A DNA stretch of 32,955 nt from Patescibacteria group bacterium (lineage in GTDB: Bacteria; Patescibacteriota; Patescibacteriia; Patescibacteriales; VMTK01). A program made the translations under genes and the position numbers. The notes below the pieces were generated by a model. That model was given only the letters and a program-made list of their open reading frames with translations. It ran no database searches and was not told the origin of the DNA. The stretch's first letter is position 1; each line of letters starts with the position of its first letter. The stretch lies in assembly GCA_034723335.1 (NCBI GenBank), contig JAYEOU010000141.1, positions 1-32,955 on the forward strand, given 5' to 3'. Of the stretch, positions 28,962 to 30,068 are shown piece after piece.

Positions 28962-30068
28962 ATGTTAATTCTGGGCATTGAAACAAGCTGTGATGAAACA
29001 GCGGCGGCAATTGTGGAAGGCAAAAGCGCTGGTACGCAAAATATAGTATTCGTACGGTCAAATATTGTTTCATCGCAAATAAATATCCATAAAAAATACG
29101 GCGGCGTGGTGCCTGAAGCGGCGGCGCGCGAGCATGTTCTGCAAATTTTGCCTGTAATTAATAAAGCACTTAAAAAAGCTGGCATAAAACGAAAAGAAGC
29201 GCCTAAAAAAATAAATGCTATTGCCGTAACAATTGGTCCCGGCTTAATAACATCTTTGCAGGTTGGCATAGAAACAGCTAAAGTTCTGTCGTATGTATGG
29301 CAGATTCCTGCCATAGCGATTAACCACATTGAAGGGCACATCTATGCCAATTTTATTGCCAATAAACACCAGCTAAAAGTTCCAAACATTAAATTTCCGG
29401 CATTAATTTTAACGGCGTCAGGCGGGCATACAATGCTGGTCTTAATGAAAGAACATAAAAAGTATAAAACTATTGGTGAAACCAGGGACGACGCGGCTGG
29501 AGAAGCGTTTGATAAAGCGGCGAGATTGCTTGGCTTAGGATATCCCGGAGGACCAGCCATATCAGCTTGCGCTGACAAATTCCAAATATCAAATCACAAA
29601 TTACAAACAAATTCCAAATATCAAATCACAAATTACAAAAATAATATTAAATTGCCGCGTCCAATGATAAATTCTAAAAATTATGATTTTTCATTTTCCG
29701 GCCTTAAAACTGCATTACTGTACGAAATTCAAAAAAATCCAAATTACAAGTTACAAATTACAAATTACTGTTACGAATTCCAACAGGCAATAATTGATGT
29801 TCTAGTCCGTAAAACTATTAAAGCCGCTAAAAAATATAAAATTAAAACTATAATGCTTACAGGAGGAGTATCTGCCAATGAAGAGCTCCGTTTACAGTTT
29901 GAACAAGCTGTAAAAAAATTTGTTCCATGTTCCATGTTCCATGTTCCATGCCTAAAATACACTACTGATAACGCGGCCATGGTGGCAACCGCGGGCTATT
30001 ATTATGCTATACGGAAAAATTTTACGCCATGGCAAAAATTAAAAGTTAATTGTAACTTGGAATTATGA
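28962..30068 (+). CDS. tsaD: tRNA N6-adenosine threonylcarbamoyltransferase TsaD, with in-frame short-repeat insertions
   Basis: LGIETSCDETAAAIV, INHIEGHI, GYPGGP, FSFSGLKT, GGVSAN and TDNAAM. ATG at 28962 preferred over the TTG at 28947. Confidence 0.93.
   Translation: MLILGIETSCDETAAAIVEGKSAGTQNIVFVRSNIVSSQINIHKKYGGVVPEAAAREHVLQILPVINKALKKAGIKRKEAPKKINAIAVTIGPGLITSLQVGIETAKVLSYVWQIPAIAINHIEGHIYANFIANKHQLKVPNIKFPALILTASGGHTMLVLMKEHKKYKTIGETRDDAAGEAFDKAARLLGLGYPGGPAISACADKFQISNHKLQTNSKYQITNYKNNIKLPRPMINSKNYDFSFSGLKTALLYEIQKNPNYKLQITNYCYEFQQAIIDVLVRKTIKAAKKYKIKTIMLTGGVSANEELRLQFEQAVKKFVPCSMFHVPCLKYTTDNAAMVATAGYYYAIRKNFTPWQKLKVNCNLEL

What the first reader, a model, noticed from the sequence alone, without database searches (positions are those of the whole stretch)
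29577..29949. tsaD contains three in-frame short-tandem-repeat insertions, one unit being translated in two different frames
Three repeat blocks lie inside the tsaD CDS.
- 29577-29640 is a tandem duplication of a 32-nt unit (aaattccaaatatcaaatcacaaattacaaac), itself built of NNcaaat heptamers. Because 32 is not a multiple of 3, copy 1 reads FQISNHKLQ and copy 2 reads SKYQITNYK within the same polypeptide.
- 29741-29775 holds five aaattac-type heptamers, encoding NYKLQITNYCY.
- 29922-29949 holds gttccat x4, encoding VPCSMFHVPC. The same heptamer occurs intergenically at 12828-12841.

All three lie between conserved TsaD motifs (GYPGGP / PRPM, FSFSGLKT / QQAIIDVL, GGVSAN / TDNAAM). All are in the orientation that contains no stop codon in any frame. 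TsaD is an essential enzyme, so tolerance of such insertions is notable, and array length changes could switch the gene off.
Basis: partly seen in the sequence, partly recalled or inferred. Interest (0 to 1): 0.6.

Follow-up and report, generated by a model that had tools for sequence, protein, structure and literature searches.

The report
Translated heptamer DNA arrays in tsaD
The essential tRNA-modification gene tsaD of this ultra-small (Patescibacteria) bacterium really does contain three short DNA tandem repeats that are translated, but they are local examples of 7-base repeat arrays that pervade the whole genome and its relatives, and look stable, not like an on/off switch.

Summary
tsaD (28962-30068) holds a perfect 32-nt x2 duplication read in two frames, a (CAAATTA)x4.1 array and a perfect (GTTCCAT)x4.3 array.

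- Only block 1 is an insertion. It sits in a loop that ranges from 17 to 63 residues in 120 homologues.
- Blocks 2 and 3 have exactly the length of non-repetitive orthologous sequence. They encode ordered parts of the enzyme: a helix start, and a beta-strand six residues before the catalytic Asp.

The arrays are not special to tsaD. The 979-kb genome has 175 period-7 arrays, against 17 for period 6 and 14 for period 8. Thirty-three lie inside 28 genes, and all are stop-free as read. Relatives carry heptamer arrays at the same tsaD sites with lineage-specific units, which indicates concerted evolution.

Nothing supports a switch. The arrays are short, their length is fixed across diverged orthologues, and near-identical relatives show no copy-number change.

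The most likely cause is heptamer-biased slippage or templated copying in a lineage where no MutS/MutL was found, filtered by translation.

This scan has reported the same phenomenon on other Patescibacteria DNA, including another tsaD. I found no published description.

The parts
28962..30068 (+). tsaD coding sequence (368 aa, ATG 28962, TGA 30066-30068). It is the only copy in the genome.
   Evidence: The catalytic residues H122, H126 and D336 are invariant in 120 homologues.
29577..29608 (+). Block 1, copy 1 of the 32-nt module (four CAAATNN-type heptamers plus aaac). It is read as KFQISNHKLQT (residues 206-216).
   Evidence: AF2 extends helix 196-216 through it, with pLDDT falling from 85 to 51.
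29609..29640 (+). Block 1, copy 2 of the same 32-nt module, read one frame over as NSKYQITNYK (residues 217-226).
   Evidence: Residues 217-225 have pLDDT below 50 and are predicted disordered.
29740..29768 (+). Block 2: (CAAATTA)x4.1 with two variant bases, encoding PNYKLQITNY (residues 260-269). It is length-neutral relative to orthologues.
   Evidence: AF2 places it as a loop plus the N-terminus of helix 262-291, with pLDDT above 95.
29921..29950 (+). Block 3: perfect (TGTTCCA)x4.3 encoding FVPCSMFHVPC (residues 320-330). It is length-neutral and ends 6 residues before the catalytic D336.
   Evidence: AF2 places it as a loop plus strand 325-327, with pLDDT above 95.
12828..12874 (+). GTTCCAT x2 followed directly by (CGTTATG)x4.9, straddling the 3' end of the gene at 12857-14695 (minus strand). 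Another member of the same genome-wide class.
8964..9036 (.). (TAATTCG)x10.6, the longest heptamer array of the window, abutting the stop of the gene at 9037-10755.
8731..8760 (.). (GAATTAC)x4.3, the inverted partner of the 8964-9036 array.
   Evidence: note e1-3351131.
11713..11743 (.). (TTACTTC)x4.4 at the 3' end of the gene at 11713-12717 (minus strand).
15673..15696 (.). (CCGCTTG)x3.4 in the 3'-terminal codons of the gene at 15660-16778 (minus strand).
27309..27351 (.). (ACGCGTT)x6.1 intergenic array.

Best explanation
The three blocks are local instances of a class of short heptanucleotide tandem arrays, usually 3-5 units long, that runs through this genome and its lineage. A DNA-level process working in a 7-nt register creates the arrays and keeps them homogeneous. 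I infer this to be replication slippage or transient misalignment with templated copying, in a lineage where no MutS/MutL mismatch repair was found.

Inside genes, translation acts as a filter. An array of three or more units is read in all three frames. Only arrays that are stop-free as read, and that change length by multiples of 21 nt (7 aa) or not at all, survive.

In tsaD:
- Block 1 occupies a permissive, partly disordered surface loop that turns over quickly between lineages.
- Blocks 2 and 3 have overwritten native codons without changing length, and now encode ordered core elements.

The arrays are passengers tolerated by selection. They are not a regulatory switch.
For: SHOWN.

1. Period-7 excess in the genome.
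- There are 175 arrays of at least 3 units, against 17 for period 6 and 14 for period 8. TRF gives the same picture.
- Copy number falls off smoothly.

2. Where the arrays lie.
- 99 are intergenic, 36 straddle gene ends and 40 lie inside ORFs (33 internal, 7 within 15 codons of an ORF end). Coding sequence is 81.5% of the genome, so arrays are about 11-fold depleted inside genes.

3. The host genes are real.
- They include a Mur ligase, topoisomerase I, a UvrD-type helicase, the CCA-adding enzyme, a release factor, Lgt, Tmk-Dut, GT4 glycosyltransferases and a TsaB-like protein.

4. A translation filter is visible.
- 25 of 33 internal arrays have a sense unit that is stop-free in all frames.
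- The other 8 each carry a unit variant exactly where a perfect array would give a stop.
- By contrast, 44 of 99 intergenic arrays have stops in both orientations.

5. Arrays inside genes are longer.
- The median is 30 nt against 25 nt between genes (Mann-Whitney p = 0.002).
- 64% against 31% reach 28 nt (p = 0.002). This fits a seed plus a 21-nt in-frame step.

6. The phenomenon is lineage-wide.
- tsaD loci of Patescibacteria hold 45 and 37 period-7 arrays, against 0-1 for periods 6 and 8. None were found in 25 kb from other phyla.

7. The same tsaD sites carry lineage-specific units.
- Within-genome unit identity at block 3 is 6.0 of 7 in both WIN and L001.
- Identity between orthologous units of the two genomes is 4.25 of 7.
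- The two 32-mer copies co-vary: A/A in WIN and C/C in L001.

8. Synonymous sites are conserved inside arrays.
- WIN against L004 gives 17 same / 3 different inside blocks 2 and 3, and 121/117 outside (p = 0.004).

9. Length is stable.
- Blocks 2 and 3 equal the median length of 120 homologues.
- No array indel was seen in pairs at least 99% identical.

10. MutS_V and MutL domains were not found in the genome (91% complete). MutS_V did not pass the cut-off in 31 genomes of the same order.

INFERRED: the slippage or templated-copying mechanism, and its link to the missing mismatch repair.
Against: - The generating mechanism was not observed, and nothing here explains why the register is 7 nt.
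- Homogenisation down to the 7-nt level cannot come from in-frame (21-nt) gains and losses alone. A length-neutral copying step has to be assumed.
- The mosaic similarity has another possible cause. WIN reaches 86-91% nt identity with L005 and L004 around blocks 2 and 3, against a 60-75% background. Recombination between lineages would explain this, so the patchy distribution on the tree (at least 5 changes) would not require in-place formation.
- The 32-nt module recurs at a second tsaD loop in relatives. That fits a copy-and-paste element as well as slippage.
- No population data were available.
Confidence: 0.75

Rival explanations
1. Block 1, and possibly the other blocks, is a small mobile or dispersed DNA module. 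It would be inserted in frame into permissive loops in the manner of Rickettsia palindromic elements, rather than grown in place.
For: - The 32-nt module AAATNCCAAATNNCAAATNACAAATNNCAAAC occurs in relatives at the block-1 loop (L001, L107, L191, L192). It also occurs at a different loop after HIYANF (L192 x2, L004, L190).
- Intergenic AAAATTC arrays share a conserved left flank of about 35 nt.
- GC-rich palindromes do insert as 21-, 30- or 33-nt in-frame units. They often land exactly inside arrays or at the junction between the 32-mers.
Against: - The 32-mer is unique to tsaD in this genome.
- The arrays are not palindromic.
- In-gene arrays lack conserved flanks.
- Blocks 2 and 3 add no length.
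- Copy numbers decline smoothly from 2 units, as expected for growth in place.
- A 32-nt insertion would shift the reading frame.
Confidence: 0.2
2. The arrays form a contingency (phase-variation) locus. Gain or loss of a unit would shift the frame and switch tsaD off and on within the population.
For: - A change of 7 nt or 32 nt would shift the frame.
- Heptanucleotide repeats do drive phase variation in Haemophilus (PMC8262952, PMC2651432, listed).
- No mismatch repair was found, which would raise slippage rates.
Against: - The arrays have only 2 to 4.3 units.
- tsaD is single-copy. Its depletion is lethal in E. coli (PMC9654439).
- Blocks 2 and 3 keep one length across orthologues of 60-79% identity.
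- Near-identical pairs that carry arrays (L005/L007, L012/L117) show no change in array length.
- The same arrays occur in 28 unrelated housekeeping genes.
Confidence: 0.03
3. The repeat-encoded peptides are selected for a function of TsaD itself, for example a lineage-specific contact with TsaB, TsaE or tRNA. On this view the DNA repetition is secondary.
For: - Blocks 2 and 3 encode ordered segments predicted with high confidence. Functionally placed residues are kept, such as F326 and P329 next to D336.
- The peptide VPxSMFHVPC is shared by WIN, L004 and L003.
Against: - Each heptamer is read in three frames, so selection on the protein cannot make the units identical.
- Synonymous positions inside the arrays are conserved or homogenised.
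- Block 1 differs completely between close lineages and is predicted disordered.
- Most orthologues do without the arrays (7 of 110 have the block-2 type).
Confidence: 0.07
4. The repeats are assembly or sequencing artefacts of this metagenome-assembled genome.
For: The genome is a fragmented MAG of 146 contigs, and no reads could be examined.
Against: - All three blocks keep the reading frame of a full-length TsaD.
- Independent assemblies from other studies carry nearly the same sequences: L001 for block 1 and L004 for blocks 2 and 3.
- The arrays are far shorter than a sequencing read.
Confidence: 0.02

Closest known systems
Over-represented heptameric long simple-sequence repeats of prokaryotes (Mrazek et al. 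2007 as summarised in PMC4692102; GGGAATC repeats of Xanthomonas, GGGGA(T/C)T repeats of Nostoc)
   Same: - The unit is 7 nt.
- Period 7 shows a strong genome-wide excess over neighbouring periods.
- The arrays are mostly intergenic, and some form inverted pairs.
- Unit and length differ between close species.
- Polymerase slippage tied to the polymerase footprint has been proposed as the cause.
   Different: - Here the units are AT-rich and diverse (44 families), not G-quadruplex-forming.
- The arrays are short, at 3-5 units.
- About a fifth lie inside genes and are translated, including ordered parts of an essential enzyme. The cited work treats intergenic repeats only.
Cyanobacterial STRR (short tandemly repeated repetitive heptanucleotides), including STRR inside the RNase P RNA gene (Vioque 1997, cited in PMC4748335)
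   Same: - A few heptamer families are dispersed at many loci.
- There is precedent for arrays tolerated inside a functional, essential gene, within a variable structural element.
   Different: - The phylum and the unit sequences are different.
- The precedent is an RNA gene. Here the arrays are read as protein in three frames.
Rickettsia palindromic elements
   Same: Repeat DNA is inserted in frame in surface loops of housekeeping proteins without destroying function. Block 1 and the nested GC palindromes of relatives behave this way.
   Different: - RPEs are 100-150-nt palindromic mobile elements.
- The tsaD blocks are tandem arrays, not palindromes.
- Two of the three blocks add no length.
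Phase-variable simple-sequence contingency loci (Haemophilus, Neisseria; PMC2651432, PMC8262952)
   Same: Tandem repeats lie within or next to a coding sequence, and a change of one unit would shift the frame.
   Different: - Contingency loci have long, polymorphic tracts in dispensable surface or restriction-modification genes.
- Here the arrays are short and length-stable, in an essential single-copy housekeeping gene and in 27 other genes.

Membership tests
TsaD (tRNA N6-adenosine threonylcarbamoyltransferase, TIGR03723) | Full-length match above the curated cut-off | tested here: met
   371.4 bits against a cut-off of 296.1, covering profile positions 1-311 of 314.
TsaD (tRNA N6-adenosine threonylcarbamoyltransferase, TIGR03723) | ASKHA fold with the metal-binding His-x3-His and the Asp of the TDN motif | tested here: met
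   The AF2 model has pLDDT 89.8. Foldseek gives TM 0.91-0.93 to E. coli TsaD 4ydu/4wq5. H122, H126 and D336 are invariant.
Heptanucleotide SSR / STRR-like arrays | Head-to-tail units of 7 nt, three or more copies | tested here: met
   Blocks 2 and 3 have 4.1 and 4.3 copies. Block 1 is built of CAAATNN heptamers, but its exact repeat is 32 nt.
Heptanucleotide SSR / STRR-like arrays | Genome-wide excess of period 7 over neighbouring periods, with unit families dispersed at many loci | tested here: met
   175 arrays against 17 (period 6) and 14 (period 8). There are 44 unit families, the top three with 28, 24 and 12 loci.
Heptanucleotide SSR / STRR-like arrays | STRR in the strict sense: the STRR1-3 unit sequences of heterocystous cyanobacteria | tested here: not met
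   The organism is a Patescibacteria bacterium related to Ca. Falkowbacteria. The units are AT-rich and of other sequence. It works like STRR but is not STRR.
Phase-variable contingency locus | A long repeat tract prone to slippage | tested here: not met
   The tracts have 2.0, 4.1 and 4.3 copies.
Phase-variable contingency locus | Copy-number variation between close strains or within the population, including out-of-frame alleles | tested here: inconclusive
   Near-identical tsaD pairs show no change in array length, and blocks 2 and 3 have a fixed length in orthologues. No relative closer than 79% identity was found.
Rickettsia-palindromic-element-like coding insertions | A palindromic dispersed element | tested here: not met
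   The blocks are direct tandem arrays. The 32-mer occurs only in tsaD in this genome.
Rickettsia-palindromic-element-like coding insertions | An in-frame insertion that lengthens a surface loop | tested here: met
   This holds for block 1 only. Its loop has 33 residues against 16-20 in array-free relatives, and it is predicted partly disordered. It does not hold for blocks 2 and 3.

The most novel reading that the evidence does not exclude
In Patescibacteria a copying process in a 7-nt register, in a lineage without MutS/MutL, does more than add repeats to loops. It overwrites native codons in place, without changing length, and keeps re-homogenising them.

Ordered core elements of essential enzymes are then specified by DNA arrays read in three frames. 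Here these are a helix start and the beta-strand next to the catalytic Asp of TsaD. This would be a mutational drive at the DNA level that dictates protein sequence against codon-level selection.
Probability: 0.3. Interest if true: 0.75.

Novelty: new variant of a known kind. Interest (0 to 1): 0.5.

Why it matters
Heptameric repeats are known as an unexplained intergenic oddity of some bacteria. Here they reach into at least 28 genes of a minimal genome and into the structured core of an essential enzyme. Their units evolve in concert within each lineage while length stays fixed.

If this is general, three things follow:
- A DNA-level repeat process would account for much of the low-complexity sequence and the length variation in CPR proteins.
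- It would affect annotation, alignment and phylogeny of these organisms.
- It offers a natural system for studying how far protein folds tolerate sequence imposed by a mutational bias.

For this particular locus, the practical message is that it is not a genetic switch.

Tried and rejected
- Closer relatives. The 90% cluster of the protein has one member. Genomes of the same family are only 71-75% identical. Scans of genome and metagenome contigs gave nothing above 79%.
- First AF2 run. With 22 sequences it was too poor to use (pLDDT 60.9). It was repeated with 120 sequences.
- Ectopic donor for block 3. The three other AACATGG-family arrays in the genome share no flank with tsaD. No donor was identified.
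- Independent origins against recombination. The block-2 array state needs at least 5 changes on the masked tree. The mosaic nucleotide identity means recombination cannot be excluded, so this is left open.
- Hairpin insertion as the origin of the 32-nt duplication (a 32-nt target duplication). Rejected, because 32 nt plus the 33-nt hairpin of L192 is not a multiple of 3, whereas the hairpins alone (33 and 66 nt) are in frame.
- Literature. Searches for heptanucleotide or SSR repeats in Patescibacteria, CPR or Parcubacteria found nothing relevant.
- Programmed frameshifting and antisense genes. The minus-strand ORFs at 29342-29578 and 29771-29980 are short and lie inside tsaD. They were not pursued.

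Full report
**What is there**

The ORF at 28962-30068 (+) is tsaD.
- It scores 371 bits on TIGR03723, against a cut-off of 296.
- It aligns over its whole length with solved TsaD chains.
- An AlphaFold model built on 120 homologues has mean pLDDT 89.8. It superposes on E. coli TsaD with TM 0.91-0.93.
- It is the only tsaD in the genome. The genome is 979 kb in 146 contigs and 91% complete. A TsaB-like paralogue is also present.
- The nearest named relatives are Candidatus Falkowbacteria MAGs, so this is a Patescibacteria/CPR bacterium.

Tandem Repeats Finder reports three arrays:
- 29575-29639: period 32, 2.0 copies, 100% match.
- 29740-29768: period 7, 4.1 copies, 90% match.
- 29921-29950: period 7, 4.3 copies, 100% match.

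None of these patterns occurs in dinucleotide shuffles of the window.

With the ATG at 28962, the first 32-mer begins in codon position 1 and the second in position 3. The same DNA is therefore read as KFQISNHKLQT and then NSKYQITNYK. GTTCCAT x2 also sits at 12828, directly before a (CGTTATG)x4.9 array.

**Only one of the three blocks is an insertion**

- *Block 1.* Against T. maritima TsaD, block 1 is a gap of about 17 residues between GYPGGP and PRPM. Among 120 close homologues this interval ranges from 17 to 63 residues.
- *Blocks 2 and 3.* These exceed T. maritima by two residues each. WIN has 18 and 21 residues in these intervals, exactly the median of the 120 homologues. Orthologues carry non-repetitive sequence of identical length there: KDKNWKKKIPEYC at block 2, and LPGVKLIIPEF or LPGINFHLPDL at block 3.
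- *Structure.*
  - Block 1 extends helix 196-216 and then becomes disordered, with pLDDT below 50 at 217-225.
  - Block 2 is a short loop plus the first turns of helix 262-291, with pLDDT above 95.
  - Block 3 is a loop plus strand 325-327, with pLDDT above 95. It ends six residues before the invariant catalytic Asp336.

Two perfect or near-perfect DNA arrays therefore encode ordered parts of the enzyme's core.

**The arrays are genome-wide, not a tsaD peculiarity**

- The genome holds 175 period-7 arrays of at least three units, against 17 for period 6 and 14 for period 8. TRF agrees.
- They fall into 44 unit families.
- Exact runs decline smoothly with copy number, and almost none exceed five units.
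- By location, 99 are intergenic, 36 straddle gene ends and 40 lie inside long ORFs (33 internal, 7 within 15 codons of an ORF end). The genome is 81.5% coding, so arrays are about eleven-fold depleted in coding DNA.
- The 33 internal arrays lie in 28 genes that Pfam recognises as ordinary. These include a Mur ligase, topoisomerase I, a UvrD-type helicase-nuclease, the CCA-adding enzyme, a class-1 release factor, Lgt, a Tmk-Dut fusion, prepilin peptidase, several glycosyltransferases, Wzy-type proteins and a TsaB-like protein.

**Intergenic arrays have their own architecture**

- AAGAATT arrays come as inverted pairs that form long hairpins at 3' ends.
- AAAATTC arrays share a conserved flank.

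**A translation filter is visible**

- An array of three or more heptamers is read in all three frames.
- 25 of the 33 internal arrays have a sense unit without stops in any frame.
- The other eight each carry a variant unit exactly where a perfect array would give a stop. An example is GAATTAC in place of GAATTAA.
- By contrast, 44 of 99 intergenic arrays have stops in both orientations.
- Internal arrays are longer than intergenic ones. The median is 30 nt against 25 nt (Mann-Whitney p = 0.002), and 64% against 31% reach 28 nt. This is expected if in-frame growth must come in steps of three units (21 nt, 7 aa).

**The same tsaD sites carry arrays across the lineage**

- In tsaD loci from genome and metagenome collections there are 45 and 37 period-7 arrays, against 0-1 for periods 6 and 8. 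None occur in 25 kb from other phyla.
- *Block-1 loop.* Each lineage carries a different unit:
  - GAAATTG in L005.
  - ACAAATT and CAAAATT in L003.
  - AAACTTC in L008.
  - CGTTATG in L012.
  - CTAAAAG in L056.
  - Array-free relatives have a 16-residue loop.
- *Block 3.* WIN, L004 and L003 have CATGTTC-type units, and L001, L005 and L107 have CTAATTC-type units. All are in the same register and of the same length.
  - Units within a genome are 6.0 of 7 identical in WIN and in L001.
  - Orthologous units between those two genomes are only 4.25 of 7 identical.
- *The 32-mers.* The two copies co-vary, A/A in WIN and C/C in L001.
- *Synonymous sites.* Codons inside blocks 2 and 3 are far more conserved between WIN and L004 (17 same, 3 different) than elsewhere in the gene (121/117; p = 0.004).

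Each unit is read in a different frame, so selection on the protein cannot produce this pattern. The DNA repeat itself is being maintained or regenerated. This is concerted evolution at constant length.

**What remains open about origin**

- On a tree built with the blocks masked, the block-2 array state needs at least five changes.
- WIN is closest to L001 in the N-terminal half of the gene.
- Around blocks 2 and 3 it reaches 86-91% nucleotide identity with L005 and L004, against a 60-75% background. Recombination between lineages is therefore as good an explanation for the patchiness as repeated formation in place.
- The 32-nt module AAATNCCAAATNNCAAATNACAAATNNCAAAC recurs in relatives at the block-1 loop. 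It also recurs at a second loop, after HIYANF. That leaves room for a copy-and-paste component.
- GC-rich palindromes of 21, 30, 33 or 66 nt, always in frame, are the only indels seen between near-identical tsaD genes. In several relatives they sit exactly inside heptamer arrays or at the junction of the two 32-mers.

**Mechanism**

The most likely mechanism (inference) is heptamer-biased replication slippage together with transient misalignment that copies bases from a neighbouring unit without net change in length.

- Gains and losses in steps of 21 nt can keep the frame. They cannot make neighbouring units identical, so a length-neutral templated step is required.
- Neither a MutS_V nor a MutL domain was found in this genome. 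MutS_V did not pass the cut-off in 31 genomes of the same order, several of them 99-100% complete.
- Missing mismatch repair would favour both slippage and recombination between diverged sequences. It does not explain why the register is 7.
- Published work on heptameric repeats offers only the polymerase-footprint idea (PMC4692102).

**Not a switch**

- The arrays have at most 4.3 units.
- Blocks 2 and 3 keep one length through orthologues of 60-79% identity.
- The near-identical pairs that carry arrays (L005/L007, L012/L117) show no change in array length.
- tsaD is single-copy, and its depletion is lethal in E. coli (PMC9654439).
- The same arrays occur in dozens of unrelated housekeeping genes.

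**Comparison with what is known**

- The closest published kinds are the over-represented heptameric SSRs of prokaryotes and the cyanobacterial STRR. STRR are even tolerated inside the RNase P RNA gene.
- For block 1 and the nested palindromes, the closest kind is the in-frame Rickettsia palindromic elements.
- The difference here is translation of heptamer arrays in three frames inside many protein genes, including ordered core segments, with lineage-specific homogenised units.
- I found no paper describing this in Patescibacteria.
- Earlier agents of this scan noted the same phenomenon in at least 79 other genomes, including another tsaD. Those notes agree with my results but are not independent evidence.

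Noticed in passing
window 28470-28661 and 30116-30307: Two inverted copies of a 192-nt MITE bracket tRNA-Glu plus tsaD. They are 96% complementary, with terminal inverted repeats TAGACTTGTCGCGTAATTA. 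The element gives about 100 BLAST hits in the 979-kb genome, many at contig ends, which probably explains the fragmented assembly.
   Followed up: partly
whole genome G000 and 30 genomes of the same order: No MutS_V or MutL (DNA_mis_repair) domain was found in this genome (91% complete). MutS_V did not pass the cut-off in 31 genomes of the order, several of them 99-100% complete.
   Followed up: partly
L190 (G004) and L189 (G002), tsaD: The same 31-nt GC-rich palindrome CCCCGGCCGCGCACCGCGCAGCGGGGCAGGC (read as PRPRTAQRGRQ) is nested inside heptamer arrays at three different tsaD loops of two related genomes. Heptamer arrays seem to be preferred landing sites for such hairpins.
   Followed up: partly
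L007 vs L005; L021, L130, L142 vs relatives: Between tsaD genes 83-99% identical in nucleotides, the only indels longer than 6 nt are in-frame GC palindromes of 21 nt (gcttgtcccgcttcttgcggg) or 30 nt (tccgccaaaggcggaccagcctctggctgg and similar).
   Followed up: no
window 28878-28895, 30149-30166, 28610-28644: The palindrome (A)ATCCGCCAGCTGGCGGATT flanks tsaD on both sides, once alone and twice inside the MITE copies. It also follows heptamer arrays elsewhere in the genome (C97, C141:12880).
   Followed up: no
window 28911-28961: The in-frame translation upstream of the ATG (KYVNTKDSINNLLSLVN) matches the N-terminal extensions called in relatives' TsaD (P0004, P0006, P0007). A TAA at 28908 closes the frame in this window. 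This is probably a conserved promoter or leader DNA, not protein.
   Followed up: no
G000:C71:1891-2337 (L098): The TsaB-like partner gene also carries an internal heptamer array, GTTAAAA-type, read as VKSKKLKVKS.
   Followed up: no
window 28785-28857: tRNA-Glu (TTC) lies on the minus strand, directly upstream of tsaD.
   Followed up: no
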